A stretch of 64,000 bases of DNA. Origin: an uncultured Gemmatimonadota bacterium. Lineage in GTDB: Bacteria; JAAXHH01. The stretch lies in assembly GCA_951812955.1 (NCBI GenBank), contig OX638340.1, positions 3,488,001 to 3,552,000 on the forward strand, read 5' to 3'. Positions 36,434 to 53,147 of this stretch are shown one piece after another; within the stretch, counting starts at the first letter, position 1, and each line of letters begins with the position of its first letter. The position numbers and the translations under genes were made by a program. The notes below the pieces were generated by a model, which saw only the letters and a list, made by a program, of their open reading frames with translations, did no database searches and had not been told where the DNA came from.

Positions 36434-36643
36434 TTGTTTACAATATAATCATATTTAATTCTTATAATTTCACATTTAAGCCACGAGTTATTGATCTTAG
36501 ATTTGATAAGTTAAGACTCCAGCGTTAGTATTATGTTGAAAAATCCAGTTTGATTCACATATTGAATTTATCAATCTCTGAAACAACTGACCCGTTCGTT
36601 TGTGAATACAGGGGCAGCATTTTCTTCCAAAGAATGTACCTCG

Positions 36644-39482: not shown

Positions 39483-39784
39483 ACGGTTTCACCAGGTACG
39501 CTTCATCTCAATGGTCTTCATCTTCAGATAGTGTCAACCAGATCTGCGTACGAAACACGGCTATCGAAAACCTGGCTGGCATGGAGGAATTGTCATGTTC
39601 GGTAACTGGATTTCGAGAAGCGTCAGACTTTCGGGAACGTGACCATTGTAAGTCCGGCTGAGAAGAGCTTCAGATGCAGTGGGTCTTCTTGAGGCGGTGA
39701 CCTCATTGACACGCGTTCCGTTCAGGATTGACGGTCCATCCTTCCGGACACGTGTAACCGAGCCTGCTCGGCAGGAGGTATGAA

Positions 39785-40336
39785 ATGCGTATTTTACTTA
39801 TGATGATCGTCCTGGTCGCATTGGCCTGTGGCGATGACGATATGCCGACGGCCCCAACTCCCACACCGGAACCGGATCCTGCCGAGAAGCTGATCGGCAC
39901 GTGGAAATACACGGGGAACGATTTCGATACCAAACTGGCCGCCAACGTGCGGAATTACCTGATCGGCGAGGGCCATACTGCGAGCGAGGTCGACAAGGCG
40001 GTATCTGGCGCCCTTGGTGAACTCGACTTGGCGTTAGCCCGTACCTTTAACTTTAGGTCAGACGGAACGGTGATTGTCGACAGCGAACCTCCTTACCGGT
40101 ACCAGGTGTCCGGCAATCGAATAATCATCACGACTTCGGATGGTGAGACTCTTTTCTTGGGGGGTGGTGAGACTCTTTCCGGGGAATACGCCGTTACGGA
40201 CACCGCGCTTACCCTGCATTTTCCAGTAGCCCCGCTGCTGGCGACTGTTGTACCGGAGGACGAAGAGGAAGCGGAACTGATGAGGACCATATATATGGGG
40301 ATAGAGGTCTTGACTATGTATTTCTCGAGGCAGTGA
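39785..40336 (+). CDS. Hypothetical lipoprotein
   Basis: AGGAGG SD and lipobox MRILLMMIVLVALACGDDD. No recognisable motifs. Confidence 0.7.
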   Translation: MRILLMMIVLVALACGDDDMPTAPTPTPEPDPAEKLIGTWKYTGNDFDTKLAANVRNYLIGEGHTASEVDKAVSGALGELDLALARTFNFRSDGTVIVDSEPPYRYQVSGNRIIITTSDGETLFLGGGETLSGEYAVTDTALTLHFPVAPLLATVVPEDEEEAELMRTIYMGIEVLTMYFSRQ

Positions 40337-40686
40337 TTTCTTGTTGAACTGATCACCGTAAATCAGGCGCTTTACTTGATTTCCATGTGGACTGCGCCGC
40401 TCACCAGCATTTAGTATTTTCGCCGACCGCCCTCTGTCGGACTGCGCCTCCCGCCCGTTTTGAAACTGCGCCGCCTGACCGGGACGCATCTGTATTGAGT
40501 ATCTTCTGAGCAAGGAACGTATACGAATCTCTTGAGTGAAGCCAGAGTCCGCACCGGCTGCCTTATTGAAGAGTTCTGCAATCTTAAGGCACCTCTGATC
40601 AACCTGGTTGTTCGATCAAGTGGTATGATCCGAGTCCGTTCAGAGATCGATCACGGTGATAATGATGTCGTTATGGGTAATTGCCT

Positions 40687-40922
40687 TTGGATTCTTGCCA
40701 AGGTGTTTTCATCCTCGGTCGGGTCCGGGAACAGCTTGGCCTGCCCGGGGTTTCGCCTGATCTAGGCGCACATTCAAATAGGAGGCCATCTACCTCAACT
40801 CCTATGACACCGTGTTGGAACTGATCGGTAGGCTAAATCCCTGTTTCTCGTTCTACAGCCATGAAAGGCAGAATCCGTCGCTGGGTTATCTCGCTCCGGC
40901 CGAGGTACACTTTGAACCGTAG
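40687..40922 (+). pseudogene. Decayed integrase-core (rve; IS3/IS481-like) transposase relic
   Basis: 40782-40922 reads EAIYLNSYDTVLELIGRLNPCFSFYSHERQNPSLGYLAPAEVHFEP*, which resembles the ..YN..RPH.sLGY.tPae tail. Out-of-frame upstream, LDSCQGVFILGRVREQLGLPGVSP (40687-40758) resembles the DNG.EF...v...L...G region. Stops lie between them. Confidence 0.55.
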
Positions 40923-41082
40923 TTTTACGTAGAGGATCCACCTTAAGTCTTACAACCTGTGGTCCATACTTGGTGATAAGTTTGCCATTTTAACATTCTT
41001 TAAACACAAACGTGCTACACGCGAGGAAAACAGTTCGACCTGCGGTGTAAAAACACCGAGCCGTTTGTCGTAACTGCCGATC

Positions 41083-44000
41083 ATGCCAATATCATACAGG
41101 CTGAGTACAATTTTCAATTTTCATTTCTTTTATAGCGTCGTCGCGGTGCTGTCATTCTTCGTACTGGTTACCTGTGGCAAGGACAGTCCGACCCAACCCA
41201 GGCCGCCAAGTCAACCGCCGGTCCAACCACCCACGCCGGTCCAGCCACCTCCTGCTCCGCAACCCTCTCGCATCACCATCACGCCATCCTTGGTGAATCT
41301 CATGGCGATCGGTCAGACGACGCAGCTCACGGCCTCGGTCCTTGATCAGAACGGGCAGCCAGTTCCCGGCGCGGTCGTTGCATGGTCCAGCAGCGATGAG
41401 GATGTCGCCACCGTGAGCGGCCAGGGGTTGGTAACCGCGGTCAGCAACGGTACGGCCACGATCACCGCCATGGCGGGAAGCGTGTCGGCGACCGCCAGCG
41501 TGCGGGTCTCCCAGACCGCTGGCAGCGTCAAGATCGATCCGGACATGGCCACCCTGATGGCCATTGGGGAAACAGCGCAGCTCACGGCCGTGGTACTCGA
41601 CCAGAACGGGCAGCCAGTTCCCGGCGCGGTCGTTGCATGGTCCAGCAGCGATGAGGATGTCGCCACCGTGAGCGGCCAGGGGTTGGTAACCGCGCTCAGC
41701 AACGGTACGGCCACGATCACCGCCATGGCGGGAAGCGTGTCGGATTCTGCTTTGGTCACGGTCCTCGTTCCCAGAACGGACCGGGATGTTCTGATTGCCT
41801 TCTACGAGAGCACTGGTGGTGAGCAATGGACGGTCAGGTCAAACTGGCTTAGCGTACATCCTCTTGAAACGTGGCTTGGCGTGACCGTCAACTCGGAAGG
41901 CCTGGTAACGGAGATCGACTTGCCGAACAACAATTTGCGCGGACCGCTCACGTCCGAGTTAGGTTATCTGGAAGAGCTCGCGACGCTCCGTCTGAACCAT
42001 AACCAGTTAACGGGTCACATTCCTCCGGAACTCGGCCGACTGGCGAAACTGCGTCACCTGGTGTTGTCCAGCAACCAATTGACCGGAGTGATTCCGACGG
42101 GACTCGGTCAATTAACCGGATTAGAGGAACTGTTGCTGTCCTTCAACCGTCTTTCAGGATCCATACCGGGGGAACTGGGTGACCTGAAGGGACTCAAGAG
42201 GCTGTCGCTTTCAGTCAATGAACTGGATGGACCGGTCCCGGCAGAATTGGGACGACTAAAACAACTGACATCGTTGCGGCTGGACCAGAATCGGTTGTCC
42301 GGGTCAATCCCGCTACACCTTGGCGGGATGACGGTTTTGCGGTCAATGGTACTCGCCGACAATCAGTTAACAGGTGCAATACCAGCCCACCTGTCCTCGT
42401 TGGATAATCTCGAAGAACTGGTGCTGGATCACAACAGACTGGAGGGCGGCATACCCTCACAGTTGTACCGACTTGCCAATCTGAAACGGCTTGGACTCGC
42501 CGGCAACCGGTTATCCGGCGGCGTGCCGGCGTTCTTGGGCAGACTCACCAACCTTACGCACCTGCATCTGTTCTCGAATCGCGGTCTTTCCGGTGTCCTG
42601 CCGCGTTCATTCACCGGTCTTCAACTGGAAGAACTGTTGCTTGAAGGCACGCAGCTTTGCGTACCGCCGGATGACGATTACGAGGCATGGTTGGACCAGA
42701 TTCCAGTGAAGACGGTAACGACCTGCTCCAACCTGGAGTCCAGCGTGTTGGCAACGCTGTACAACGCAACGAATGGAATAAACTGGGCGGATAACACGAA
42801 TTGGCTGAGCGACCGGCCATTGGGTACATGGTATGGCGTGACCACGGACGCCGATGGCTACGTGACGGGTATCGATCTTACGAACAACAATCTGAACGGG
42901 TCCGTACCGGGTGAACTGGCTGGCCTTTCGAAGCTCAAATCGCTGAATCTCAGTACCAACGGTTTTTTGAGAGGGCAGTTACCCCGGGAACTCATCAATC
43001 TTGAACTTCGGGAACTGCTGCTGGAAGACACCCGGTTGTGCGCGCCGCCGGACGCCGAATTCCAGGACTGGCTTCAGACCATTCCGGCAAGAAGCGTATC
43101 CACATGTGATGATCTTGATCTCAATTCGCTTAAGGCCCTGTTCGCGCTCTTCAACGACACGAACGGTCCGGGCTGGCATGACCGGACAAACTGGAACAGT
43201 GATGCGCCGCTGGAGGAATGGTACGGCATCACGGTAGACGAGGACGGCAGGATAACCGAACTGAATCTTGCCGGCAACAATCTCAGCGGCTCGCTCCCCG
43301 CTGACCTGGCAGCACTAACGGAACTGGAACGGCTCGATTTCAGCGACAACGAAGGGCTGACGGGCCCGCTACCGCACGAATGGACAGCACTGACCCTCGA
43401 GTATCTGCGGGTGGAAGGAACGCAGTTGTGCGCTCCACCGGATACCGGGTTTCAGGCCTGGTTGAACGAAATCCCCGAGTACGGCATACCGGAATGTACC
43501 GATACCAGGCCGGACTGGGCTGATACCAATCCTGAATGGGATGTCCTCGAACTCTTGTATAATAGTACGAACGGGAAGGACTGGACGAACAATGAGAACT
43601 GGTTAAGCGAAGCGCCCTTGGATCAGTGGTACGGCATAAAGACGGACGAGGAAGGAAGAGTGACTGAACTTAATCTGGAAGACAACAACCTGTCTGGCGA
43701 ACTACCCCCAAGACTGGGAGATCTAATCGGACTCACGTCGCTGGAACTTTCGTTTAATAAACTTTCGGGTTCAATTCCCGCTGAACTCGGACAGTTGACA
43801 GCCCTTGAAACTTTGTTTCTGGACGATAACGCCCTTTCGGGTCCGATACCCGCCGAACTCGGACAATTTTCCGGCCTGCGAAGATTGGATCTGGGCTGGA
43901 ACGATCTCTCTGGCGTGATTCCCGCTGAACTCAGGCAGTTGACGGGCCTTACCTCGCTCGGTCTGCGCTTCAACAACCTTTCGGGCGTGATTCCCGCTTT

Positions 44001-46005
44001 CCTCGGACAGTTGACCGGCCTTGAAACTTTGTATCTGGACGGTAACGCCCTTTCGGGTCCGATACCCGCCGAACTCGGACAGTTGACCGGCCTGCAATGG
44101 TTGCTTTTGGACGACAACAACCTTTCGGGCGTGATTCCTGCTGAACTCGGACAGTTGACCGGCCTGCAATGGTTGCTTTTGGACGACAACAACCTTTCGG
44201 GCGTGATTCCTGCTGAACTCGGACAGTTGACCGGCCTGCGAAGATTGGGGCTGGGCAATAACAATTTTTCGGGGGTGATACCTGCCGAACTCGGACAGTT
44301 GACCGACCTGGGAAGATTGAGGGTGGACAATAACAATCTCTCTGGCTCGATCCCTCGCGAATTAGGTCAGTTGACAAGCCTCAGAACGCTGGATCTTGGC
44401 TCGAATCCCCTTCTGTCAGGCGCGTTGCCCGAATCTATTACGACGCTGCGACTGGAGACGCTTCTACTGGGTAATACGGCACTCTGCATGCCAATGACAA
44501 CCACATTTCGGACCTGGTTGCAGAGTATTCAGAACCACAGGGTGGCTTCTTGTCTCGAGTACACCGGCGCAACCGCGTACATGACGCAGGCCGCACAATC
44601 ACTGGCCCATCCCGTGCCGCTGGTAGCCGGTGAGGCTGCGTTGCTGCGCGTGTTCATAACAGCCGATTCGGACGTAGGAGCGAGCATGCCTCCCGTTCAG
44701 GCAGTCTTCTTCAACGGGAACCAGATCGTCCACTCTGTGGAGATCCCGGAACAGGATACGGCTGTTCCGGAGCGGTTTGAAGAGGGCGCGCTGATGTATT
44801 CAGCAAATGCGGAAGTGCCCGGAACGGTGGTGATGCCTGGTCTGGAGATGGTAATAAATATCGATACGATGGGATCACCAGGCGATGAATCGAACGTAGT
44901 CTTGCGAATACCTGAAACGGGTCGGCAGCCACTGGACGTGAGAACGGTCCCTCCGTTCAATCTGACCCTTGTACCCTTCCTGTGGATGGAAAGCCCCGAT
45001 ATTGGCGTGTTGGCGGAAACGGACGGCTTGACTGCCAACGATGACCTTTTCTGGCAAACGCGCAATCTGCTTCCTATCGCGGATTTCGAGGTAGCAGTAC
45101 GGGAGCCCGTCTGGACTGCGACGGATCCTCTCTATTCATATGAAATATTGCAGGAAACCAAGGCGTTACGGGTGCTGGACGGTTCTGACAGTTACTACAT
45201 GGGCATCCTCCGGGCAGGCGGCGGACAGGCCGAACTGCCCGGTACCTCAAGCGTGTCTGTCCTCGATGCAGAGGTTATCGCACATGAAATCGGGCACAAC
45301 ATCAATCTCTATCATTCCCCGTGTGGTGGCGCTGGTGGACCAGATCCGCTCTACCCCTATGACGACGGCTCGATCGGTTCCTGGGGTTACGATTTCCGTG
45401 ATGGCACCCTCGTCGCTCCCGGGACAGCGGATCTGATGAGTTACTGCAATCCGCAATGGATCAGCGAATATGGGTTCACCCGGGCTATGAATCACCGGGG
45501 CACAGCGCCGCGGCTGATGGCTGCCATCGCCCGATTCAGTTCGAAGGGACTGCTGGTTTGGGGAGGGGTAAATGAGGAAGGTGAATTGGAACTGGAGCCA
45601 AGTTTTGCGGTCAATTCCGGCCCATCAGTCCCCTTGCTGTCCGGACCTTACCGACTCACGGGTCAAGCCGCGGATGGCATCGTTTTATTCTCCGTAGACT
45701 TCGGAATGGCCGAACTGGGAGACGGACCGGGTAATGCCTTTGCTTTCGTACTACCAGTACAACCCGGCCGGGCGGAAAGGCTTTACACCATTACATTGTC
45801 CGGTCCCGAAGGCGTCGCAACCTTAGACAGGGACGGCGATCGCAGCGCTGCGCTGCTGTTGGATCGGGACACGGGAACAGTCCGCGGTATATTGCGTGAC
45901 TGGCTGGATCCTTCAAGCATATCACCCAGCGCACGGCCCACGCTTCCGGAGCCGGGTCTGGAGATCGTCGTAAGCCCCGGCGTTCCCGAACCGGATTCCT
46001 GGTAG
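41083..46005 (+). CDS. Giant lipoprotein (1640 aa): Pro-rich linker, two Big_2 domains, four capped LRR modules, C-terminal metzincin-type protease domain
   Basis: Lipobox FFVLVTCGKDSPTQP. Two near-identical Big_2 units (QLTA.VLDQNGQPVPGAVVAWSSSDEDVATVSGQGLVTA.SNGTATITAMAGSVS). Four N-cap/cap pairs. The C-terminal domain runs from ~44556 with HEIGHNINLYH and DLMSYC. Confidence 0.92.
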   Translation: MPISYRLSTIFNFHFFYSVVAVLSFFVLVTCGKDSPTQPRPPSQPPVQPPTPVQPPPAPQPSRITITPSLVNLMAIGQTTQLTASVLDQNGQPVPGAVVAWSSSDEDVATVSGQGLVTAVSNGTATITAMAGSVSATASVRVSQTAGSVKIDPDMATLMAIGETAQLTAVVLDQNGQPVPGAVVAWSSSDEDVATVSGQGLVTALSNGTATITAMAGSVSDSALVTVLVPRTDRDVLIAFYESTGGEQWTVRSNWLSVHPLETWLGVTVNSEGLVTEIDLPNNNLRGPLTSELGYLEELATLRLNHNQLTGHIPPELGRLAKLRHLVLSSNQLTGVIPTGLGQLTGLEELLLSFNRLSGSIPGELGDLKGLKRLSLSVNELDGPVPAELGRLKQLTSLRLDQNRLSGSIPLHLGGMTVLRSMVLADNQLTGAIPAHLSSLDNLEELVLDHNRLEGGIPSQLYRLANLKRLGLAGNRLSGGVPAFLGRLTNLTHLHLFSNRGLSGVLPRSFTGLQLEELLLEGTQLCVPPDDDYEAWLDQIPVKTVTTCSNLESSVLATLYNATNGINWADNTNWLSDRPLGTWYGVTTDADGYVTGIDLTNNNLNGSVPGELAGLSKLKSLNLSTNGFLRGQLPRELINLELRELLLEDTRLCAPPDAEFQDWLQTIPARSVSTCDDLDLNSLKALFALFNDTNGPGWHDRTNWNSDAPLEEWYGITVDEDGRITELNLAGNNLSGSLPADLAALTELERLDFSDNEGLTGPLPHEWTALTLEYLRVEGTQLCAPPDTGFQAWLNEIPEYGIPECTDTRPDWADTNPEWDVLELLYNSTNGKDWTNNENWLSEAPLDQWYGIKTDEEGRVTELNLEDNNLSGELPPRLGDLIGLTSLELSFNKLSGSIPAELGQLTALETLFLDDNALSGPIPAELGQFSGLRRLDLGWNDLSGVIPAELRQLTGLTSLGLRFNNLSGVIPAFLGQLTGLETLYLDGNALSGPIPAELGQLTGLQWLLLDDNNLSGVIPAELGQLTGLQWLLLDDNNLSGVIPAELGQLTGLRRLGLGNNNFSGVIPAELGQLTDLGRLRVDNNNLSGSIPRELGQLTSLRTLDLGSNPLLSGALPESITTLRLETLLLGNTALCMPMTTTFRTWLQSIQNHRVASCLEYTGATAYMTQAAQSLAHPVPLVAGEAALLRVFITADSDVGASMPPVQAVFFNGNQIVHSVEIPEQDTAVPERFEEGALMYSANAEVPGTVVMPGLEMVINIDTMGSPGDESNVVLRIPETGRQPLDVRTVPPFNLTLVPFLWMESPDIGVLAETDGLTANDDLFWQTRNLLPIADFEVAVREPVWTATDPLYSYEILQETKALRVLDGSDSYYMGILRAGGGQAELPGTSSVSVLDAEVIAHEIGHNINLYHSPCGGAGGPDPLYPYDDGSIGSWGYDFRDGTLVAPGTADLMSYCNPQWISEYGFTRAMNHRGTAPRLMAAIARFSSKGLLVWGGVNEEGELELEPSFAVNSGPSVPLLSGPYRLTGQAADGIVLFSVDFGMAELGDGPGNAFAFVLPVQPGRAERLYTITLSGPEGVATLDRDGDRSAALLLDRDTGTVRGILRDWLDPSSISPSARPTLPEPGLEIVVSPGVPEPDSW
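44071..44238 (+). repeat. Exact 72-nt (one LRR unit) tandem duplication inside the gene
   Basis: Period-72 self-identity without mismatch across this span. It encodes LSGVIPAELGQLTGLQWLLLDDNN twice. Confidence 0.9.
45283..45315 (+). other. Zinc-binding motif HEIGHNINLYH
   Basis: cat gaa atc ggg cac aac atc aat ctc tat cat, in frame with 41083-46005. Confidence 0.8.
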
Positions 46006-46063
46006 GATCGTTCGACGAGGACGGACGACCAGTCTTGTTGAATTCAATTCAGGATAGCGCTCT

Positions 46064-49000
46064 ATGATTCGACATACAAGACTCACATCGATGACGGTCA
46101 TCATGTTGCTGGCGCTGCCGATCCTGGTCAGGTGCGGCAGGGACAGCCCGACTAAGCCACAGCCGCCGACACCTGCGAGGATCACGGTCACGCCGCAGTC
46201 GCCGACCCCGACGGCTGCAGAACAGATTTCAACACGCGATGACTTGGTTAAGGACGAAAGCGGCGCGGAGATCGCCGATGCAGTTTCGGACAGGGCGGCG
46301 CTGATCGCACTGTATAACGCCACGAACGGTCAGCACTGGACGAACAATAGGAACTGGCTGAGCGAGGCGCCTTTAGGGCAATGGCATGGCGTGACGACCG
46401 ACGAGAATGGGCGGGTACAGCGGTTGAAACTGTTTCAAAACAACCTTTATGGACCTGTTCCAGCCGAGTTGGGAAGTTTGGAAAAGCTCGTTCAGATAGA
46501 TTTTGGGGCAAACAGGCTAAATGGCGTCATACCACCCGAACTGGGAAGTTTAAGCAAACTTGGAGATCTGGGGCTGGGTTATAATAACCTTTCGGGCGCC
46601 ATACCACCCGAACTGGGCAAATTGAGTAACCTTAGTTGGCTGTATCTGGCTGCCAATAACCTTTCGGGCGCCATCCCCGACGAACTGGGCAATCTGGTTA
46701 TAATGCGGTATATGAGTTTTAATAACAACCCCGGCCTGTACGGAACGCTGCCGCTGACTTTCACCAACCTTACTTCTCTGGAATCTCTGTACATAGGTGG
46801 CACGAAGATCTGCGCCCCGCCGACGCCCGAGATGGAGGCGTGGATAGCCACTGTTCCAGATCATGATGTCGCCACCACCTGCGCCGACCTGGATATCGAA
46901 GCGTTGACGGGGTTGTTTAACTCGACTGGCGGGTCGGACTGGACAAACAAAGAGAACTGGCTGAGCGATGCGCCTTTGAGCGACTGGTACGGCATAACGA
47001 CGAATGAAATCGGGCGAGTCAAGGGGCTTAGTCTACCAAATAACAACATGCGCGGGGTGTTGCCTCCGGAGATCGTGGATCTGGCCGCCCTGAGGAATCT
47101 GAACCTGTCTCTCAACGAGGGATTGGCCGGATCATTGCCCTTGAGATTCACCACGCTGAGTCTGGAGTCACTGCGTCTCGAAGGGACGCACGTTTGCGCA
47201 TCCCGGGACGCAAGCTTCCAGGATTGGTTAAATGGCATTCCGAATCGGTCCGTCGCAGACTGTGCCGAACTGGATACGGACGCGCTGGTTGCCCTGATCG
47301 GATTGTACGCGTCCACGGGCGGCAAGAACTGGACGAACAACGAGAACTGGCTGAGCCAGTCTCCCCTGTCCTGGTGGTACGGGGTGACCGTTGATGCCAA
47401 CGGCCGGGTAACTGAGCTGGACTTGTCCGATAACAATCTGAGCGGTGCTCTGCCCGCAAGTATGGGCAAACTGGTGGATTTGAAACTAATCGACCTGGGG
47501 GGCAATACCGGGCTCGTTGGACCACTGCCGGAATCGCTTACCGGGCTTCCAATTGAATCACTTAATCTTGAGGGCACCGGACTGTGCGCGCCTGCCGATT
47601 CAGGCTTCCGGTCCTGGCTAAACGGTATTGGTGGCACGTCCGGTGTCGACGACTGTGCGGAAGATCTTCCGGATTGGCAAGCGCTGGTTACTTTTTACAA
47701 TGAAACAAATGGATCGAACTGGGAGGACAATACCAACTGGCTGAGCGCCGAACCGCTGGATGAATGGTTTGGCGTGTCCACGGACGCTAGCGGACGGGTG
47801 ACTGCTCTGGAGCTTGCCTGGAACAACCTTTTGGGGCCGTTACCTGCCGCCCTGAGTCGTCTGGACAAGCTTGAACGCCTGAATTTAGGAGCAAACGAAC
47901 TGTCCGGCCCTATCCCACCCGATCTGGGCAAGCTGGAAAACCTTCGAGTACTGAATCTGTTCTTTTGTTGGATTTCGGGAACGATACCGCCCGAACTGGG
48001 GAGGTTGACCAATCTTGAAATACTTGATCTCAGTGCGAATGGCAGGACGCTAACCGGCACGCTGCCCGTGGAGCTTGGGAAGCTGGCCAAACTCAAAGTC
48101 CTGGATCTCGGTGGTAACGGTCTGTACGGGCCCATACCGGAAGAGTTGAGCCGTTTGGCGGAGCTCGAGGTCCTGGATCTGCGATGGAACGGTTTTTCTG
48201 GGTCAATTCCCAGAGTATTTGGAAAACTGGCCAATCTCACAGTGTTGCGTCTCAACGGAAACAAGGTGTCGGGCGGGATACCGAGGGAGTTGGGGCTGTT
48301 GTCCGAAATTGAAATTTTGGATATGGGCCGTAATGGCCTGGCGGGGCCGGTACCCGGGGAGTTCGAAAATCTGACCAATCTGAGTGGCTTAAACTTAAGT
48401 AGAAACAATCTGTCCGGCTCGATCCCCGCTGAATTGAGTCATATGAACGCACTGGAGACATTGGATCTTTCATACAATAAACTAACTGCTTCGGTACCTG
48501 GTGGACTGGGTAGGTTGGCCAATTTAAGAGAACTGGTATTGGCCGGAAACACCGGAATGGCCGGACCGTTGCCGGCTGAATTCGTAGAGCTGAATCTCGA
48601 AACGCTCATGTTGGGTGATACCGGGCTCTGCGCGCCACGGGACGCCGAATTTCAGAGCTGGCTTCGTTTCGTTCAGAACAGCCGGGTGACTCCGTGTGCC
48701 GTCCCGGTGGAGGCAACGGCCTACCTGACCCAGGCGAGTCAGTCCCTGGACCATCCCGTCCCCCTGGTCGCGGGCGAAGACGCGCTGTTGCGGGTTTTCC
48801 TGAAGGCCGACGGGGAAACCGACATCCCCATCCCTCCGGTCCGGGCTTCGTTCTATCAAGGCGGCGGGGTTGTCTATATTGCTGATGCACCGGGCGAGGC
48901 TTCGGACGTACCGGCTTCCTTCGAGGAAGAGACACTGACCGCCACGGCCAACGTACGCGTACCGGGTTCTGTAGTGATACCGGGTGTCGAGTTGGTGGTC

Positions 49001-50176
49001 GAGATCGATCCCGACAGGACGTTGGACTCCGCGCTCGGTATCGCCGGCCGCATCCCCGAGACGGGAAGGATTACGCCGGATGTGCGAGAGCTTCCGACCT
49101 TCGATCTGACGCTGATCCCTTTTTTATGGACAGAAGGTCCCGATCATTCCGTGTTGTCCGCAATCGAAGGGCTCACGCCGGAATCCGATCTGATGCGGCC
49201 GACCCGAGATCTGCTGCCGGTGAGCGACTTCCAGTTGTCGGTGCACGCGCCGGTATGGACTTCAGTGGATCCCGTATCCGATAACGTAGGCGATCTCGGA
49301 CCCGAATTGGAGGCCATCTATGCCCTTGAAGGAGAAACAGGCTACTATATGGGCATCTTCAGACTGGCCGGACCGCAGGGCGGACTACTGGGGATAGCTC
49401 AGGATATACCCAGCTACTTGAGTTTCTCCATCCTCGATCCTTACGTCATTGCACATGAACTGGGGCACAACCTGAATCTCTATCATGCGCCATGCGGCGG
49501 TGCTCGCGGCCCCGATCCGTTCTACCCATATGGGGATGGTTCCATTGGGGTTTCCGGATACGATATGATGAATGAATCCCTGGTGAGTCCGCAAACCTGG
49601 GACCTGATGAGTTATTGCGAACCGATGTGGATCAGCGACTATTCCTTTTCCAGGGCGTTGAGCCATCGAATCGCGCTGGGCGCTACGATCCCGCCGGCTT
49701 TTGCGGCCGTCACGAGAGGCCTGCTGGTCTGGGGGGGTCTGGACGAAGCCGGGGAACTCACCCTCGAGCCCGCCTTTGTAGTTGACGCGCCGCTTAAGCT
49801 GCCGGAATCCGATGGTCCGTATACCATCAGGGGAGAGCGCGAAGACGGCAGCAATCTGTTCTCACTTTCCTTTGCCATATCGGAATACGCCGATACCGAG
49901 GGAGGATCCTTCGCTTTCATTGTCCCCGTGCGGGAGACCTGGCCCGGAAACCTGCACCGTATAACGCTTTCCGGTCCCGGGGGGTTTGCCGAGATCGACG
50001 GAGACGGGGACCGTTACATGGCGCTCATGCGGGACAGCGTAACCGGCGAGGTCAGAGGCATTCTCAGAGACTGGCCTGATCCATCGGATACCTCGGCAGC
50101 GGGCCGGCGTATCCCGCCCGAACCCGGGATGGAAATAACAGTCAGCGGTGGTGTTCCCGATCGGGATTCGTGGTAG
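46064..50176 (+). CDS. Giant lipoprotein (1370 aa): four capped LRR modules and a C-terminal metzincin-type protease domain
   Basis: Lipobox LALPILVRCGRDSPTKP. N-caps are ALIALYNATNGQHWTNNRNWLSEAPLGQWHGVTTDENGRV and three more, and each module is capped (for example GTGLCAPADSGFRSWLNGIGGTSGVDDC). The C-terminal domain runs from ~48700 with HELGHNLNLYH and DLMSYC. Confidence 0.92.
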   Translation: MIRHTRLTSMTVIMLLALPILVRCGRDSPTKPQPPTPARITVTPQSPTPTAAEQISTRDDLVKDESGAEIADAVSDRAALIALYNATNGQHWTNNRNWLSEAPLGQWHGVTTDENGRVQRLKLFQNNLYGPVPAELGSLEKLVQIDFGANRLNGVIPPELGSLSKLGDLGLGYNNLSGAIPPELGKLSNLSWLYLAANNLSGAIPDELGNLVIMRYMSFNNNPGLYGTLPLTFTNLTSLESLYIGGTKICAPPTPEMEAWIATVPDHDVATTCADLDIEALTGLFNSTGGSDWTNKENWLSDAPLSDWYGITTNEIGRVKGLSLPNNNMRGVLPPEIVDLAALRNLNLSLNEGLAGSLPLRFTTLSLESLRLEGTHVCASRDASFQDWLNGIPNRSVADCAELDTDALVALIGLYASTGGKNWTNNENWLSQSPLSWWYGVTVDANGRVTELDLSDNNLSGALPASMGKLVDLKLIDLGGNTGLVGPLPESLTGLPIESLNLEGTGLCAPADSGFRSWLNGIGGTSGVDDCAEDLPDWQALVTFYNETNGSNWEDNTNWLSAEPLDEWFGVSTDASGRVTALELAWNNLLGPLPAALSRLDKLERLNLGANELSGPIPPDLGKLENLRVLNLFFCWISGTIPPELGRLTNLEILDLSANGRTLTGTLPVELGKLAKLKVLDLGGNGLYGPIPEELSRLAELEVLDLRWNGFSGSIPRVFGKLANLTVLRLNGNKVSGGIPRELGLLSEIEILDMGRNGLAGPVPGEFENLTNLSGLNLSRNNLSGSIPAELSHMNALETLDLSYNKLTASVPGGLGRLANLRELVLAGNTGMAGPLPAEFVELNLETLMLGDTGLCAPRDAEFQSWLRFVQNSRVTPCAVPVEATAYLTQASQSLDHPVPLVAGEDALLRVFLKADGETDIPIPPVRASFYQGGGVVYIADAPGEASDVPASFEEETLTATANVRVPGSVVIPGVELVVEIDPDRTLDSALGIAGRIPETGRITPDVRELPTFDLTLIPFLWTEGPDHSVLSAIEGLTPESDLMRPTRDLLPVSDFQLSVHAPVWTSVDPVSDNVGDLGPELEAIYALEGETGYYMGIFRLAGPQGGLLGIAQDIPSYLSFSILDPYVIAHELGHNLNLYHAPCGGARGPDPFYPYGDGSIGVSGYDMMNESLVSPQTWDLMSYCEPMWISDYSFSRALSHRIALGATIPPAFAAVTRGLLVWGGLDEAGELTLEPAFVVDAPLKLPESDGPYTIRGEREDGSNLFSLSFAISEYADTEGGSFAFIVPVRETWPGNLHRITLSGPGGFAEIDGDGDRYMALMRDSVTGEVRGILRDWPDPSDTSAAGRRIPPEPGMEITVSGGVPDRDSW
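49454..49486 (+). other. Zinc-binding motif HELGHNLNLYH
   Basis: cat gaa ctg ggg cac aac ctg aat ctc tat cat, in frame with 46064-50176. Confidence 0.8.
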
Positions 50177-50243: not shown

Positions 50244-50296
50244 CCCTGCGGGACTGAGTCTGGGTTGAATCCTATTGTATCTCCCCGGCTGACTCC
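50244..50296 (+). repeat. Right copy of the direct repeat bracketing the 14.2 kb block
   Basis: ccctgcgggactgag tctgggttgaatcctattgtatct ccccggctgactcc. The 15-mer is identical to 36001-36015. The next 24 nt match 36031-36053 with a few mismatches. The ggctgact segment is permuted relative to the left copy. Confidence 0.6.
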
Positions 50297-50327
50297 TGCT
50301 GTTTTATTACTCCCTCCTCACTTTTAT

Positions 50328-50501
50328 TTAAAAAAGCAACGAGATCTGCACGAAGATCTCCGACTAATACATTGTAACGGTCAGGCTTCTTTCTTGCAGA
50401 TGCTGAAGAGGTCTAGAGCGATACCGCCGGCAATACATTATGTAAACGAGTTCGCCGGACGTTTCAATGACCGAGACAAGGAACGACCCTGTGTCAGATA
50501 G
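50328..50501 (+). pseudogene. IS1595-family (ISXO2-like) transposase C-terminal relic
   Basis: Reads ..LRLIHCNGQASFLQMLKRSRAIPPAIHYVNEFAGRFNDRDKERP..*. Compare the family hallmark ..HTN.IE.FW..LKR....Y..EFAGR.N.R. It is short and internally deleted, with no intact ORF or ends. Confidence 0.55.
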
Positions 50502-50576: not shown

Positions 50577-50828
50577 ATGACCGTAATGTCCCGCGAAAAC
50601 TGGGCCTTTGGAGCGCAGATCGTGTCAGCTATTGGCATCCTCGTTATCGCGATTGTCACCTTCAGCGATCAATCCAACAAGGAATTCCGGGATGAGATTC
50701 GGACCGAATTGACCGGGTTGCGCACGGACATGCGATCCGAATTTGCCTTGATTCGTTCCGAAATTCATGATCTGAACACACGCCTCGGTCGGGTCGAAGG
50801 TTACTTTCGCGTGTCTGGTAACGAGTAG
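50577..50828 (+). CDS. Small membrane protein: N-terminal TM helix plus a C-terminal 11-residue-periodic coiled-coil-like tail (paralog 1 of 3)
   Basis: GGAGAGGAG SD. TM AQIVSAIGILVIAIVTF, then FRDEIRTELTGLRTDMRSEFALIRSEIHDLNTRLGRVEGYF. Confidence 0.55.
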   Translation: MTVMSRENWAFGAQIVSAIGILVIAIVTFSDQSNKEFRDEIRTELTGLRTDMRSEFALIRSEIHDLNTRLGRVEGYFRVSGNE

Positions 50829-50953
50829 AGATGATTCCTGCATTCAACGTCTACCGAAGAGCGAGATGAATAGCGATCATTGATGAGTAGCGAAATCTGA
50901 TGAATGGCGAAATCTGATGAAGATCAGTGCGATTAGATACTGAGGAGTCAGTA

Positions 50954-51166
50954 ATGGGTGAAAACGGGATGAGAGATTGGTCGTGGACTCCGATTCTTAC
51001 CATGGCCGGTATGCAGGTTATGATGACCGGTATAATTGTTACAATCATGCTCTACTTAAACAGTGATCTAAGTAATAGGATGCTATCGGTGGAAGAGAAA
51101 TTGAGAGACTTGAATGAAGATGTATCAGGACTGGAGACCAGGCTCGATGAGAGAAAGCAAGAATAG
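50954..51166 (+). CDS. Small membrane protein, TM plus coiled-coil-like tail (paralog 2 of 3)
   Basis: ATG at 50954 after GAGGAG. TM ILTMAGMQVMMTGIIVTIMLYL, then LSNRMLSVEEKLRDLNEDVSGLETRLDERKQE. Confidence 0.5.
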   Translation: MGENGMRDWSWTPILTMAGMQVMMTGIIVTIMLYLNSDLSNRMLSVEEKLRDLNEDVSGLETRLDERKQE

Positions 51167-51208
51167 TCAAAGTAGAAACTTGATCTGATCTCAAGGACGC
51201 AGGGTACT

Positions 51209-51502
51209 ATGGAAATCGCTCAACTGGTCGTATCGCCGGCTATCTTGCTGGGAGCATTCATCTTCTTCTGGAAGGAATCCAAAGCGGGAAGAATGGAGCT
51301 GGAAACCCGGCTGGTAAAGCGCATGGATCGCATAGAGGACAGGCTGGATGCACGCATCGTCTCCCTGGAGGACAAGATGGATGCGCGCTTTATCGCTCTG
51401 GAGGACAAGATGGATGCGCGTTTTATCTCTCTGGAGGACAAGATGGATACGCGCATTGGCCGGCTGGAAGGGGTGCTCATCACACAACAGAAGGTGTCCT
51501 GA
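51209..51502 (+). CDS. Small membrane protein, TM plus hendecad-repeat tail (paralog 3 of 3)
   Basis: TM LVVSPAILLGAFIFFW. The tail contains a 33-nt tandem repeat encoding LEDKMDARFI(A/S) x3, then RIGRLEGV, which matches the RLGRVEG end of paralog 1. Confidence 0.6.
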   Translation: MEIAQLVVSPAILLGAFIFFWKESKAGRMELETRLVKRMDRIEDRLDARIVSLEDKMDARFIALEDKMDARFISLEDKMDTRIGRLEGVLITQQKVS

Positions 51503-51516
51503 TCAACGAGTGGAAA

Positions 51517-51951
51517 CTACCTCTCGGATCGCACCACCAGCGTCCGCGCGATGAGATCGTGAAAGGCCTGTCTGTGCTGCGTGAAGACCGCGGCGAGGTA
51601 GCCCGGCCAGAGGACGGGGAGGCACTTGGGAATGGCTCTGAGTGCGGCGCGGCCGAAGGTGGGGGTATATCCCTCGGCGTCGGCCACCCGGATGCCGAGG
51701 ATCATCTTGCCGATCGTGGCGCCGCGCGGTGAACTCTCCATGGCCGCGTAGTAGAACCAGGGCATGAACAACTGGAATGCGCTCATCAGGGGGAGGGTTA
51801 CGGGGTCGGAGTCGGCGCCCAAATATTCGACCGCCAGCGCAATCACCGCGGAGGCCGCGGTGAGGATCGCCAGGTCGATGGCAAAAGCGCCGATCCGCTG
51901 CAGGTGGCCGGCATAGTCTTCGGACAGGGAGTAGCCGGAAATGAAGGTCAC
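51517..51951 (-). CDS. RDD-family membrane protein
   Basis: RIGAFAIDLAILTAASAVIA ... GATIGKMILGIRV....G.....GRAALR ... FHDLIARTLVV. The likely GTG start at 51951 forms a GTGA overlap with the upstream stop. The track start at 51993 would overlap the upstream gene by 46 nt. Confidence 0.75.
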   Translation of the reverse strand: MTFISGYSLSEDYAGHLQRIGAFAIDLAILTAASAVIALAVEYLGADSDPVTLPLMSAFQLFMPWFYYAAMESSPRGATIGKMILGIRVADAEGYTPTFGRAALRAIPKCLPVLWPGYLAAVFTQHRQAFHDLIARTLVVRSER

Positions 51952-53147
51952 GGCCTGGCGGGACCTCCGTCGGGCGTGCGGGCCTGGGTCCAATTGATGA
52001 TTTCGTCCTCGCAGGGATACCGCGCTGCAAGCTTCTCGTCCACGTCGATGCCCAGGCCGGGAAGGTCGTTGGGATACATGTAGCCGCCGCGTACTTCGGG
52101 CGTGCCGGGGAAGATCTCGTATACCAGTTCATTGAAGCGGCACCACTCCTGGATGCCGAAATTCGGCGCCCACAGATCGAGGTGCAGGTTGGCGGCGTGG
52201 CCCACGGGGGAGACGTCGCCCGGTCCGTGCCACGCCGTGCGGATGCCGTACATGGCCGCCATGGCCGCGACGTTGCGGGCCGGCGTGATTCCGCCCATCT
52301 GGCTGATGTGCATGCGCAGGAAGTCGATGAGCCGTCCTTCGATCAGGGGTAGCCATTCCGCGGGATTGTTGAACAGTTCCCCCATGGCGATGGGCGTAGT
52401 GGAGGTCTGCCGCATGCGGCGGAACCACTCGTTGTCTTCGGGCGCCAGGGCATCTTCGAGGAAGAACAGGTTGTAGGGTTCGAGTTGCTTCGCGAAGACG
52501 ATGGCGTCGGCGGGCGTGAGCCGTTCGTGCACGTCATGGAGCAGTTCCACCTCGTCGCCCACGGCTGCGCGCAGGTGCTCGAACATCTTGACCGTGCGGC
52601 GCATGTAGCTTCGCGGATCGAAATAGTCGCCGGATTTCGCGCCCTCGGGCGGCGTGATCCGCGGCTTCCTTCCCCCGTATCCGCCGATCTGGCAGCGAAC
52701 GTGCCGATAGTCCTGCGCCATGTACCGCTGCACGTTTTCCGCCACTTCTGCAGGCGATGCGCCGTCGGCGTGGACATAGGTGGCCGCCGCCTCGCGGCAC
52801 TTTCCGCCGAGGAGCTGGTACACGGGCATGCCGGCCTGTTTGCCCTTGATGTCCCACAGCGCCTGGTCCATGCCGGATATGGCGTTGTTCAGTACTGGTC
52901 CGTTGCGCCAGTAGCCGTTCACCATGGCCGTCTGCCACAAGTCTTCGATGGCGTCCACTTCCTTTCCGATGAGAAAGGGCTTCAGGTGGCGTTCGATGGC
53001 TGCGTGGACGGCGTGGAACCGCTGGGTGAAGGTGGCGCAACCCAGGCCGTACAGGCCGGGTTCCGAGGTCAGGATCTTCACGACGATCAGGCGCGACCCG
53101 GCGGGCTGGGTCAGTATGGTTATCACGTCGATAATGGTCACGGGCAT
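51948..53147 (-). CDS. Enolase-superfamily dehydratase, ManD/RspA-like (D-mannonate/D-galactonate dehydratase family)
   Basis: The N-terminus MPVTIIDV..ILTQPAGSRLIVVKILTSEPGLYGLGCATFTQR...ISGMDQALWDIKGKQAGMPVYQLLGGK is typical of this subgroup, and the length is 399 aa. Confidence 0.8.
   Translation of the reverse strand: MPVTIIDVITILTQPAGSRLIVVKILTSEPGLYGLGCATFTQRFHAVHAAIERHLKPFLIGKEVDAIEDLWQTAMVNGYWRNGPVLNNAISGMDQALWDIKGKQAGMPVYQLLGGKCREAAATYVHADGASPAEVAENVQRYMAQDYRHVRCQIGGYGGRKPRITPPEGAKSGDYFDPRSYMRRTVKMFEHLRAAVGDEVELLHDVHERLTPADAIVFAKQLEPYNLFFLEDALAPEDNEWFRRMRQTSTTPIAMGELFNNPAEWLPLIEGRLIDFLRMHISQMGGITPARNVAAMAAMYGIRTAWHGPGDVSPVGHAANLHLDLWAPNFGIQEWCRFNELVYEIFPGTPEVRGGYMYPNDLPGLGIDVDEKLAARYPCEDEIINWTQARTPDGGPARP

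What the first reader, a model, noticed from the sequence alone, without database searches (positions are those of the whole stretch)
50577..51502. Tandem trio of small proteins: one N-terminal TM helix plus an 11-residue-periodic (hendecad) charged tail, in a low-GC patch
Three consecutive short genes (83, 70 and 97 aa) each have an SD-like element and the same design. The tails are:
- FRDEIRTELTG LRTDMRSEFAL IRSEIHDLNTR LGRVEGYF
- LSNRMLSVEEK LRDLNEDVSGL ETRLDERKQE
- VKRMDRIEDR LDARIVSLEDK MDARFIALEDK MDARFISLEDK MDTRIGRLEGV
The third contains a 33-nt tandem repeat (ctggaggacaagatggatgcgcg.tttatc.ct x3). Topology is the reverse of XhlA/DUF1640-type proteins, which have the coiled coil first and the TM last. 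They lie between an IS1595-like relic and an RDD-family membrane protein gene. The function of such membrane-anchored hendecad proteins is not obvious to me.
Basis: partly seen in the sequence, partly recalled or inferred. Interest (0 to 1): 0.5.

Follow-up and report, generated by a model that had tools for sequence, protein, structure and literature searches.

The report
Membrane-anchored coiled-coil stalk protein trio
Three real, conserved small genes of a sponge/coral-associated bacterium encode single-pass membrane proteins whose tails are rod-like coiled coils of evolvable length; two belong to an undescribed multi-copy family, and what they do is still unknown.

Summary
The three ORFs (83, 70 and 97 aa) exist as described and are real genes. 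They have AGGAG-type ribosome-binding sites, median dN/dS of 0.12-0.22, and the order g1-g2-g3 is kept next to the same RDD gene in many sponge/coral MAGs labelled Latescibacterota or Gemmatimonadetes.

Only g3 is a pure hendecad protein (five 4-4-3 units, encoded by a 33-nt repeat). g1 has two hendecads followed by heptads. g2 is purely heptad.

g1 and g3 are paralogues of one family: an N-terminal TM helix, 7/11-residue repeats and an invariant tip N-x-R-L-G-R-V-E-G. That tip contains the R-h-x-x-h-E trimerisation motif. g2 shows no detectable homology to them but has the same design and motif.

No Pfam, NCBIfam, PHROG or PDB family is matched above threshold. The repeats resemble the stalk of C-anchored DUF1640/CCDC90-like proteins, so the topology is reversed. 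The family has at least 6-9 copies per genome at unrelated loci, often in tandem, and tail length varies (g3: 70-152 aa).

In four genomes g3 has lost its anchor yet stays under purifying selection. It starts at an SD+ATG that lies inside a repeat unit.

Best reading: parallel, probably trimeric, cytoplasmic stalks acting as scaffolds or spacers. Function is inferred, not shown.

The parts
50577..50828 (+). g1: 83-aa bitopic protein. The TM helix is about residues 11-29 (nt 50607-50663). The tail has two hendecads followed by heptads and ends in the tip NTRLGRVEGYF.
   Evidence: ORF. 100 homologues. Median dN/dS 0.12. Core steps 443 443 43 43. AF2 gives a single helix over residues 3-80, pLDDT 69.7.
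50781..50798 (+). g1 R69-L-G-R-V-E74: an R-h-x-x-h-E trimerisation motif inside the invariant tip of the family.
   Evidence: R69, L70, R72, E74 and G75 are invariant in alignment A1. The motif is present in 97 of 100 homologues. Motif definition: PMC3653964.
50954..51166 (+). g2: 70-aa bitopic protein. The TM helix is about residues 14-32 (nt 50993-51049). The tail is four canonical heptads, with R42-MLSV-E47 (nt 51077-51094) at its base.
   Evidence: 21 homologues, with N41, R42, L44, S45, E47 and E48 invariant. Median dN/dS 0.22. Steps 4343434, period 3.52. No detectable homology to g1 or g3.
51209..51502 (+). g3: 97-aa bitopic protein. The TM helix is about residues 3-21 (nt 51215-51271). 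The tail is five consecutive hendecads (L31-L86), each carrying R-h-x-x-h-E, with the tip TRIGRLEGVL.
   Evidence: 34 homologues of 55-161 aa. Median dN/dS 0.15. Steps 443 repeated five times. Five motifs spaced 11 residues apart, P < 1e-4 against shuffles. AF2 gives a single helix over residues 4-96, pLDDT 84.5.
51302..51466 (+). 33-nt tandem repeat array: five units encoding the hendecads of g3. The unit consensus is GAGGACAAGATGGATGCGCGCATTATCTCTCTG.
   Evidence: TRF: period 33, 3.7 copies. The repeat finder family D1. Unit number differs among orthologues, giving g3 lengths of 70-152 aa.
51367..51379 (+). Internal GGAGGACAAGATG: an SD-like GGAGG, 5 nt, then an in-frame ATG (Met57). It recurs at 51400-51412 (Met68) and 51433-51445 (Met79). 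These are candidate internal starts that would yield anchorless tails.
   Evidence: The same element is the start of the TM-less but selected g3 orthologues in L011, L015, L016 and L018. Its use in this window is inferred only.
51517..51993 (-). RDD-family membrane protein gene, convergent with g3, with 14 nt between the stop codons. It is a syntenic neighbour. There is no evidence that it is a functional partner.
   Evidence: PF06271, E 9e-24. It is adjacent to the g3 orthologue in the three relatives with called genes, L001, L004 and L005, and the downstream MR_MLE and M14 genes recur in most other orthologous loci. Paralogous family loci lack an RDD gene.

Best explanation
g1, g2 and g3 are real, translated genes for single-pass inner-membrane proteins.

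Each has a short N-terminal helix that anchors the protein. The rest forms one uninterrupted alpha-helix that most likely pairs with identical or sister chains into a parallel coiled-coil stalk, probably three-stranded. The stalk would project roughly 5-11 nm from the cytoplasmic face of the membrane.

g1 and g3 are paralogues of an undescribed family. Its parts are an N-terminal anchor, 7/11-residue repeats, and an invariant tip N-x-R-[LI]-G-R-[VL]-E-G. The family is multi-copy in this host-associated lineage and occurs in other bacteria. g2 is a lineage-specific heptad analogue that travels with them.

Stalk length is evolvable. In g3 it changes by gain and loss of 33-nt units. In g1 and g2 it changes by 4-, 7- and 11-residue indels.

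The proteins carry no other domain. The anchor residues and the tip are the most conserved parts. The most likely role is therefore structural: a scaffold or spacer on the inner face of the membrane that self-assembles and docks a partner through the TM helix or the tip. Anchorless g3 tails may join the anchored stalks.

Shown here: the genes, conservation, periodicity, motifs, family structure and copy-number variation. Inferred: orientation, oligomeric state, hetero-assembly and function.
For: Coding:
- Median dN/dS is 0.12, 0.22 and 0.15, and every pair is below 1.
- An AGGAG-type SD lies 6-9 nt upstream of most family genes across the 57 loci.
- Length differences fit 4-, 7- and 11-residue indels.

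Helix and coiled coil:
- AF2 predicts one continuous helix for g3 (pLDDT 84.5) and for g1 (pLDDT 69.7).
- Core spacing is 443 x5, 443 443 43 43 and 4343434, with P = 0.0002-0.004.
- In g3 the hydrophobic stripe F/L/M is flanked by R/K on one side and E/D on the other. This is read directly from the sequence.

Trimer hint:
- R-h-x-x-h-E is the invariant element in all three proteins. It occurs once per hendecad in g3 (P < 1e-4). Motif definition: PMC3653964.

Family:
- The g1 and g3 profiles align over their full length (hhalign 81.5%, E 1e-5).
- P0230 bridges them: E 1e-18 to g3 and 1e-14 to g1.
- The profile search gives 1235 hits at E <= 1e-3, including N-anchored proteins with the same tip. 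One of these is from an Acidimicrobiia genome, Ca. Poriferisodalis.
- An unrelated 5.1-Mb genome carries a tandem trio of paralogues.

Orientation:
- K+R counts are higher after the TM than before it in 95/97 g1 and 22/22 g3 relatives.
- The anchorless g3 has no export signal yet is under selection, with dN/dS 0.13-0.18.

No operon partner:
- Paralogous loci sit among unrelated metabolic genes.

Not phage-borne:
- Scans of viral contigs found no relatives.
Against: - There is no experimental or expression data.
[quoted passage not shown] In two g3 units the a position is Phe, which lies outside the strict motif definition.
- No multimer modelling could be run.
- The positive-inside argument is weakened because the tails are intrinsically rich in K/R. 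It is ambiguous for g2 (7 against 6), and 7 of 54 distant members point the other way.
- g2 is not demonstrably related to g1 or g3.
- 'Scaffold or spacer' is a default role for a domain-less stalk, not a tested function.
- The lower GC3 is unexplained.
Confidence: 0.5

Rival explanations
1. They work like DUF1640/MCUR1 proteins: membrane-anchored trimeric stalks that act as assembly or scaffold factors for a specific channel or transporter. Here the anchor has simply moved to the other end.
For: A profile of g1 homologues retrieves many C-anchored proteins through the repeats. Two of them scanned (P0171, P0186) pass Pfam CCDC90-like at 41-42 bits. N-anchored relatives reach 30.2 bits against a cut-off of 33.5. 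The same genomes encode C-anchored proteins with nearly the same unit: SLDDKMDDRMQ against ALEDKMDARFI. TM residues are highly conserved, as expected if a membrane partner is bound.
Against: The trio gives no CCDC90-like hit at all. It has no head domain, no beta-layer A-T-K motif (PMC4786415) and no C-terminal TM. No channel or transporter gene is a consistent neighbour. The function of bacterial DUF1640 proteins is itself unknown.
Confidence: 0.15
2. The tails are not coiled coils. They are 11-mer amphipathic helices of the apolipoprotein, LEA or alpha-synuclein type that lie flat on the membrane and protect it under stress.
For: There is 11-residue periodicity. Sub-threshold hits occur to Pfam Apolipoprotein (g3 E 4e-4; relatives down to 2e-10) and to ApoA-I chains in the PDB. 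There is a weak hit to the sll1863 stress-protein family.
Against: All scores are far below the cut-off of 90 bits. The hydrophobic stripe is narrow, 3 of 11 positions. It is flanked by basic residues on one side and acidic on the other, which is the e/g pattern of coiled coils rather than the class-A pattern. The 7-residue units and 4/7/11 indels and the invariant R-h-x-x-h-E fit coiled coils. g2 is purely heptad.
Confidence: 0.1
3. The orientation is the opposite (N-in, C-out). The stalks would then be periplasmic, like FtsB/FtsL or phage i-spanins, bridging or measuring the envelope.
For: The g2 flanks are ambiguous, and 7 of 54 distant members have more K/R before the TM than after it. There are weak PHROG hits to Rz-like spanin and holin (E 0.17-0.4).
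Against: g1 and g3 relatives favour C-in in 95/97 and 22/22 cases. The g3 N-terminus has no positive charge. Anchorless g3, which has no signal peptide, is maintained by selection. There is no phage context and there are no viral relatives. No DivIC/FtsB-type family was listed in the Pfam scan at E <= 10.
Confidence: 0.1
4. They are PspB-like or other small regulatory membrane proteins that sense envelope stress and signal through the coiled coil.
For: Size and predicted topology match PspB: about 75 aa, N-out/C-in, with a cytoplasmic helical tail. There are weak NCBIfam and Pfam hits for g3 (E 0.076-0.7).
Against: Scores are 10-13 bits against cut-offs of 25.6-90. No pspA or pspC-like gene lies beside any locus examined. 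Having 6-9 paralogues per genome with variable repeat number is unlike PspB.
Confidence: 0.07
5. They are small membrane toxins of the holin, XhlA or type-I-toxin kind, kept in multiple copies.
For: They are small TM proteins with charged tails, multi-copy, in tandem arrays, inserted between unrelated genes and with lower GC3. There is a weak XhlA hit in relatives (about 20 bits).
Against: They are much longer than type I toxins and have a long conserved coiled coil. No antisense RNA or Rfam hit was found. There is no phage context. Their positions are stable and syntenic across genomes. The anchorless g3 is still under selection.
Confidence: 0.05

Closest known systems
DUF1640 / CCDC90-like family (PF07798; MCUR1, CCDC90B and prokaryotic homologues)
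   Same: It is a membrane-anchored, domain-poor protein with a long coiled-coil stalk built of repeats such as EMRxEFAAVRx. These repeats are similar enough in sequence that a g1-family profile retrieves DUF1640 members. Repeat number varies.
   Different: The anchor is at the N-terminus, not the C-terminus. There is no N-terminal head and no A-T-K beta-layer motif. A distinct invariant C-terminal tip is present (NxRLGRVEG). The Pfam score is below the gathering threshold, or absent.
F-type ATP synthase subunit b (peripheral stalk)
   Same: It has an N-terminal TM helix followed by a cytoplasmic coiled coil with hendecad periodicity (PMC3293630 and PMC6131620, listed, plus established knowledge).
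   Different: Subunit b is about 156 aa, has a delta-binding end and sits in an atp operon. Here there is no sequence similarity and no atp context, the proteins are multi-copy with variable length, and the motif suggests a trimer rather than a dimer.
Borrelia Bdr (Borrelia direct repeat) proteins
   Same: They are a multi-copy paralogous family of small inner-membrane-associated proteins. The number of internal repeats differs between strains, and their function is still unknown (PMC10016077, PMC3303823). That the repeat unit is 11 residues is from my own knowledge.
   Different: Bdr proteins are anchored C-terminally (my knowledge), plasmid- or prophage-borne and restricted to Borrelia. No sequence similarity was detected here.
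PspB (envelope stress response)
   Same: It is a bitopic N-out/C-in protein of about 75 aa with a helical cytoplasmic tail.
   Different: Only chance-level scores were obtained. There is no psp operon, no repeats and no tip motif.
XhlA (PF10779) and apolipoprotein/LEA 11-mers
   Same: All have charged helical repeats with RLxRxE-like strings or 11-residue periodicity.
   Different: XhlA is C-anchored and phage-associated. Apolipoprotein and LEA repeats are lipid-surface or disordered helices without a coiled-coil e/g charge pattern. All scores are far below the cut-offs.

Membership tests
DUF1640 / CCDC90-like (PF07798) | Score at or above the Pfam gathering threshold (33.5 bits) | tested here: not met
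   g1, g2 and g3 give no PF07798 hit at E <= 10. Relatives score 15.8-30.2 bits.
DUF1640 / CCDC90-like (PF07798) | C-terminal transmembrane anchor with an N-terminal head domain | tested here: not met
   The only hydrophobic helix is at residues 11-29, 14-32 and 3-21. The tail runs to the C-terminus as one helix.
DUF1640 / CCDC90-like (PF07798) | Beta-layer motif [aliphatic]-A-T-K-[polar]-[DE] at the start of the stalk (PMC4786415) | tested here: not met
   None of the three sequences contains an A-T-K string (sequences; motif).
DUF1640 / CCDC90-like (PF07798) | Trimeric coiled-coil stalk | not testable with these tools
   There are only indirect hints: an invariant R-h-x-x-h-E. No multimer prediction or experiment was possible.
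XhlA (PF10779) | Pfam threshold of 34.7 bits, and a C-terminal TM | tested here: not met
   The trio gives no hit. Relatives score 19.8-20.8 bits. The anchor is N-terminal.
PspB (TIGR02976 / PF06667) | Curated score cut-off, and a psp operon context | tested here: not met
   g3 scores 11.5 and 13.4 bits against 51.7 and 90, and 10.4 against 25.6. The neighbours are LRR, RDD, MR_MLE and M14 genes.
ATP synthase subunit b | Sequence match to the family, and location in an atp operon | tested here: not met
   The Pfam scan lists no ATP-synt_B hit. The flanking genes are unrelated. Only the design is shared: an N-terminal TM helix plus hendecads.
N-anchored, RLGRVEG-tipped repeat proteins (undescribed family defined here) | N-terminal TM helix, then 7/11-residue repeats, then the C-terminal tip N-x-R-[LI]-[GA]-R-[VIL]-E-G | tested here: met
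   g1 and g3 have all three features. They are linked by hhalign and by P0230. g2 has the anchor and heptads but not the tip, and shows no detectable homology.
RDD family (PF06271), neighbouring gene only | Pfam gathering threshold of 24.1 bits | tested here: met
   84.7 bits, E 9.3e-24, for 51517-51993 (-).
IS1595 transposase (relic upstream of g1) | Match to a DDE_Tnp_IS1595 or NCBIfam IS1595 model, or to annotated transposases | tested here: inconclusive
   There were no hits for ORF 50265-50501 at E <= 10 and none by tblastn against plasmids. The fragment (...HYVNEFAGRFNDRD...) is too short to score.

The most novel reading that the evidence does not exclude
Each hendecad unit of g3 carries its own ribosome-binding site and an in-frame ATG (GGAGGACAAGATG). 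One gene could therefore yield a nested set of anchorless tails as well as the anchored protein. These would co-assemble with g1, g2 and g3 into hetero-oligomeric stalks of tunable length and anchoring. This would amount to a repeat-encoded, length-programmable layer on the cytoplasmic membrane, expanded specifically in sponge and coral symbionts of several phyla.
Probability: 0.08. Interest if true: 0.65.

Novelty: new variant of a known kind. Interest (0 to 1): 0.4.

Why it matters
Small membrane proteins are under-annotated, and this family has no Pfam or NCBIfam model despite more than a thousand profile hits in the search. It offers three things:
- a natural series of hendecad and heptad coiled coils whose length changes by whole units, which is useful for coiled-coil structural rules and design;
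- the mirror-image architecture of DUF1640/MCUR1 proteins, whose bacterial function is also unknown, so that solving one may explain the other;
- a candidate lineage-expanded gene family in sponge and coral symbionts, alongside the well-known eukaryotic-like repeat proteins.

If the function turns out to be mundane membrane scaffolding, the finding is a useful annotation but not a surprise.

Tried and rejected
- Family scans. Pfam, NCBIfam and PHROGs scans of the trio and of distant relatives gave only sub-threshold coiled-coil noise. PADLOC was not run.
- Solved structures. PDB sequence profiles gave no homologue. The best hit was a SARS-CoV-2 HR1 mimic at E 2e-4, through ...SRLDKVEG, which I take to be convergent coiled-coil similarity. 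Foldseek of the single-helix model against the PDB gave 0 hits. The fold search was not pursued further because a lone helix is uninformative.
- RNA and signals. Rfam at E <= 1 found nothing over 49.8-52.0 kb. The promoter and terminator scan was at chance level.
- Phage origin. Viral contig scans with the g1 and g3 profiles found no relatives, so a phage or lysis origin was dropped.
- Functional partner. Neighbours at six classes of paralogous loci are unrelated metabolic genes: GFO/IDH/MocA oxidoreductase, 2-oxoacid dehydrogenase E2, nitrile hydratase beta, methylmalonyl-CoA mutase and an aminotransferase. The RDD gene was therefore rejected as a general partner.
- IS1595 relic. It is not verifiable.
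- Source records. Exact-sequence look-ups of g3 and g1 found no record. The source names returned were 'hypothetical protein' with no function.
- Technical failures. The first genome scan, with a too-diverse alignment, failed because no conserved stretch was found. Kyte-Doolittle Fourier analysis was underpowered and was replaced by a binary core analysis.
Full report
**1. The observation**

- g1: 50577-50828, 83 aa
- g2: 50954-51166, 70 aa
- g3: 51209-51502, 97 aa

For g2 the ORF list offers a longer GTG start at 50927. All 20 aligned homologues begin M-[GSC]-[EA] at the ATG, so 70 aa is right. Each protein has one hydrophobic helix near the N-terminus (residues 11-29, 14-32 and 3-21) followed by a strongly charged tail.

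The 33-nt repeat in g3 is real. TRF reports period 33, 3.7 copies and 85% matches at 51335-51457. Five units are in register over 51302-51466. At the protein level the g3 tail has 29 identical residues at lag 11 and 19 at lag 22, against 0-8 at lags 1-10.

The patch is low in GC: 43-51% against 59% for the window and 64-66% downstream. GC3 is also low (0.63, 0.52 and 0.69, against 0.75-0.85 in core neighbours). That is similar to the adjacent LRR genes (0.64), so amino-acid composition alone does not explain it.

The gene at 51517-51993 (-) is an RDD-family protein (E 9e-24).

The 'IS1595-like relic' could not be verified. Only the string HYVNEFAGRFNDRD resembles such transposases, and that comparison is from memory.

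**2. Periodicity**

I traced the longest chain of hydrophobic residues linked by steps of 3 or 4 and ran a Fourier test on a binary hydrophobic pattern:

| Gene | Core steps | Reading | Best period | P (shuffles) |
|---|---|---|---|---|
| g3 | 443 443 443 443 443 (L31-L86) | five hendecads | 3.63 | 0.0002 |
| g1 | 443 443 43 43 | two hendecads, then heptads | 3.57 | 0.0006 |
| g2 | 4343434 | four canonical heptads | 3.52 | 0.0036 |

'Hendecad' is therefore right for g3, half right for g1 and wrong for g2. Homologues agree:
- g2 relatives expand by 7-residue units (VDVIKQE).
- g1 relatives differ by 4, 7 or 11 residues.
- g3 relatives mix 11-residue units with occasional 7-residue units such as VDERFIA.

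This 7/11 arithmetic is that of coiled coils with stutters (PMC4786415).

**3. Are they genes?**

Yes.
- g1 has 100 homologues, g2 has 21 and g3 has 34 in the protein collection.
- Median pairwise dN/dS among orthologues is 0.12 (g1), 0.22 (g2) and 0.15 (g3). Every pair is below 1.
- Most family genes in the 57 loci examined have an AGGAG-type element 6-9 nt before the start.

**4. Where they sit**

The named relatives are MAGs labelled Gemmatimonadetes, Candidatus Latescibacterota or simply 'bacterium'. Isolate names such as APA_bin, IRC1_bin, SB0665 and Plut point to sponge and coral hosts. This matches the large LRR/Ig-like genes beside the trio and the report of LRR 'eukaryotic-like proteins' in sponge Latescibacterota (PMC12993501).

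The locus is syntenic: SelA-like, AIR-synthase-like, [small genes], RDD (-), MR_MLE (-), M14 peptidase (-). In this window about 14 kb of LRR genes is inserted between the AIRS gene and g1.

The order g1-g2-g3 recurs in L008, L010-L013, L015, L016 and L018. Other genomes carry different sets:
- g1, a second g1 copy, g2 and g3 (L001, L009, L015)
- g1 and g3 only (L004, L006)
- g3 only (L005)

g3 ranges from 70 to 152 aa, while its first 28 residues are almost unchanged among the anchored orthologues.

**5. One family or three?**

g1 and g3 are paralogues.
- Their profiles align end to end (hhalign 81.5%, E 1e-5).
- P0230 has the g3-type anchor (MELAQL...FIFFWK) and the g1-type tip (HDMNGRLGRVEGLL). 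It matches g3 at E 1e-18 and g1 at E 1e-14.

g2 shows no detectable homology to either. It does share the design, and a g2-type gene is again paired with a g1-type gene at a second locus (L056).

**6. The wider family**

A profile of g1 homologues was searched against 1.84 billion representative proteins. It gave 1235 hits at E <= 1e-3 and 39 at E <= 1e-10. Among the best 147 hits, two architectures dominate:
- about 55 are N-anchored, many ending in the same tip;
- about 50 are C-anchored.

Two C-anchored hits that were scanned (P0171, P0186) pass the Pfam CCDC90-like/DUF1640 threshold at 41-42 bits. N-anchored ones stay below it; the best scores 30.2 against 33.5. The trio itself has no significant hit in Pfam, NCBIfam or PHROGs, and there is no solved homologue.

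The repeat module is thus shared with DUF1640-type proteins, while the anchor is at the other end and the tip is specific to this family.

The same genomes also encode C-anchored proteins with nearly the same unit: SLDDKMDDRMQ against ALEDKMDARFI in g3. Two orthologues of these are 179 and 291 aa long.

Within this lineage each genome has family genes at 4-6 separate, syntenic loci, and at least 9 genes in one genome. They are often in tandem, and their neighbours are unrelated metabolic genes.

N-anchored members also occur elsewhere:
- in an Acidimicrobiia genome, Candidatus Poriferisodalis, WP_420626646.1;
- as a tandem, start/stop-overlapping trio of paralogues (110, 100 and 122 aa) in an unrelated 5.1-Mb contig.

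No relatives were found in viral contigs.

**7. Anatomy and likely mechanism**

AF2 predicts one uninterrupted helix for g3 (residues 4-96, pLDDT 84.5) and for g1 (residues 3-80, pLDDT 69.7).

In the g3 unit R-F-I-A-L-E-D-K-M-D-A the core residues are F (a), L (d) and M (h). Basic K/R flank one side of this stripe and acidic E/D the other. That is the complementary pattern of parallel coiled coils, not the class-A pattern of lipid-surface helices. This is read directly from the sequence.

The most conserved element in all three proteins is an R-h-x-x-h-E string:
- g1: R69-LGRV-E74, at the tip
- g3: R82-IGRL-E87, at the tip, with one further copy in each of the other four hendecads (positions 38, 49, 60 and 71; P < 1e-4)
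- g2: R42-MLSV-E47, at the base of the tail

The string is the trimerisation motif Arg(g)-h(a)-x-x-h(d)-Glu(e) of parallel three-stranded coiled coils. [quoted passage not shown]

K+R counts favour a cytoplasmic tail for g1 (95/97 relatives) and g3 (22/22). They are ambiguous for g2.

I therefore read the proteins as N-out/C-in bitopic proteins that form parallel, probably trimeric, stalks on the inner face of the membrane. From helix rise, tails of 35-72 residues correspond to about 5-11 nm. The anchors carry invariant polar and small residues (Q14, A18 and G20 in g1; P10, A16, F19 and F20 in g3). This suggests specific contacts within the membrane.

There is no other domain and no conserved neighbour. 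A scaffold, spacer or docking role is the most economical function, but it is inferred.

**8. An unexpected detail**

In four genomes (L011, L015, L016, L018) the g3 orthologue has lost the entire anchor-coding part. The remaining 70-aa ORF starts at the ATG of a repeat unit. It is preceded by GGAGGACAAG, an SD-like string made by the L-E-D-K codons themselves.

Pairwise dN/dS among the four is 0.13-0.18. The counts are small (6-10 non-synonymous and 10-14 synonymous differences) and the pairs are not independent. Even so, the anchorless tail appears to be maintained by selection. All four genomes keep g1 and g2.

The window's g3 contains the same in-frame GGAGGACAAGATG three times, at Met57, Met68 and Met79. 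This argues that the tail is the functional part and acts in the cytoplasm. It also raises the untested possibility of internal starts and of mixed assemblies with the anchored proteins.

**9. Comparison with what is known, and verdict**

| Known family | Relation to the trio |
|---|---|
| DUF1640/CCDC90-like | Closest in sequence, but membership fails on score, anchor position, head domain and beta-layer motif |
| ATP synthase subunit b, PspB | Closest in design (N-terminal TM helix plus cytoplasmic coiled coil); no sequence or operon support |
| Borrelia Bdr | Closest in genomic behaviour: multi-copy, inner-membrane, variable repeats, function unknown (PMC10016077, PMC3303823) |

The finding is a genuine, previously unmodelled family. 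It is a new variant of a known kind, the membrane-anchored coiled-coil stalk, and its function is unresolved. Interest is moderate at 0.4.

Noticed in passing
window 50865-50921: A 17-nt unit (GATGAATAGCGAAATCT) is repeated 3.4 times in tandem in the g1-g2 spacer. Orthologous spacers hold a single related copy, and two genomes have only a 10-nt spacer. This looks like a local slippage expansion with no sign of function.
   Followed up: partly
L011 6536-6748, L015 6956-7168, L016 6658-6870, L018 6536-6748: These g3 orthologues have lost the TM-coding part. They start at an SD+ATG inside a repeat unit and are still under purifying selection, with dN/dS 0.13-0.18.
   Followed up: yes
window 36602-50176: Three large LRR / Ig-like (Big_2) / CARDB genes (792, 1640 and 1370 aa) lie between the AIR-synthase-like gene and g1. 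Relatives L001 and L004 have only about 150 nt there, and L005 has a different LRR/Big insertion on the other strand. This is a variable island of 'eukaryotic-like' repeat proteins, typical of sponge symbionts.
   Followed up: partly
window 50430-50480 (frame of ORF 50265-50501): The peptide ...AIHYVNEFAGRFNDRDKE... resembles the C-terminus of IS1595-family transposases, from memory. No model or tblastn support was found.
   Followed up: partly
L020 2147-2686 and L021 1792-2667: These are C-terminally anchored proteins in the same genomes, built from SLDDKMDDRMQ hendecads that closely resemble the g3 unit. The two orthologues are 179 and 291 aa, so repeat number varies here too. They do not pass the CCDC90-like threshold.
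   Followed up: partly
L064 2676-3664 (and L063): An unrelated 5.1-Mb genome carries a tandem trio of N-anchored paralogues (110, 100 and 122 aa) with overlapping stop/start codons and the tip INSRLGR[IM]EG. The first gene is 88 aa in a second contig, a repeat-number difference.
   Followed up: partly
L001 5754-6095 (= L009 6679-7020): In this relative the g2 orthologue has no stop at the usual place. It reads on for 113 aa into g3 in another frame, and the gene caller did not call it. It may be a decaying copy.
   Followed up: no
window 51209-51502: Exact copies of g1 and g2 are on record from a 3,813,436-bp public contig (P0035, P0135). No protein identical to g3 is on record. The repeat-bearing gene may have been called differently, or may differ, in the public assembly.
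   Followed up: no
window 51948-51993: The longest RDD ORF (158 aa) overlaps the end of the MR_MLE gene by 46 nt. RDD orthologues are called at 144 aa in L001 and L004 but at 158 aa in L005. The true RDD start here may be downstream.
   Followed up: no
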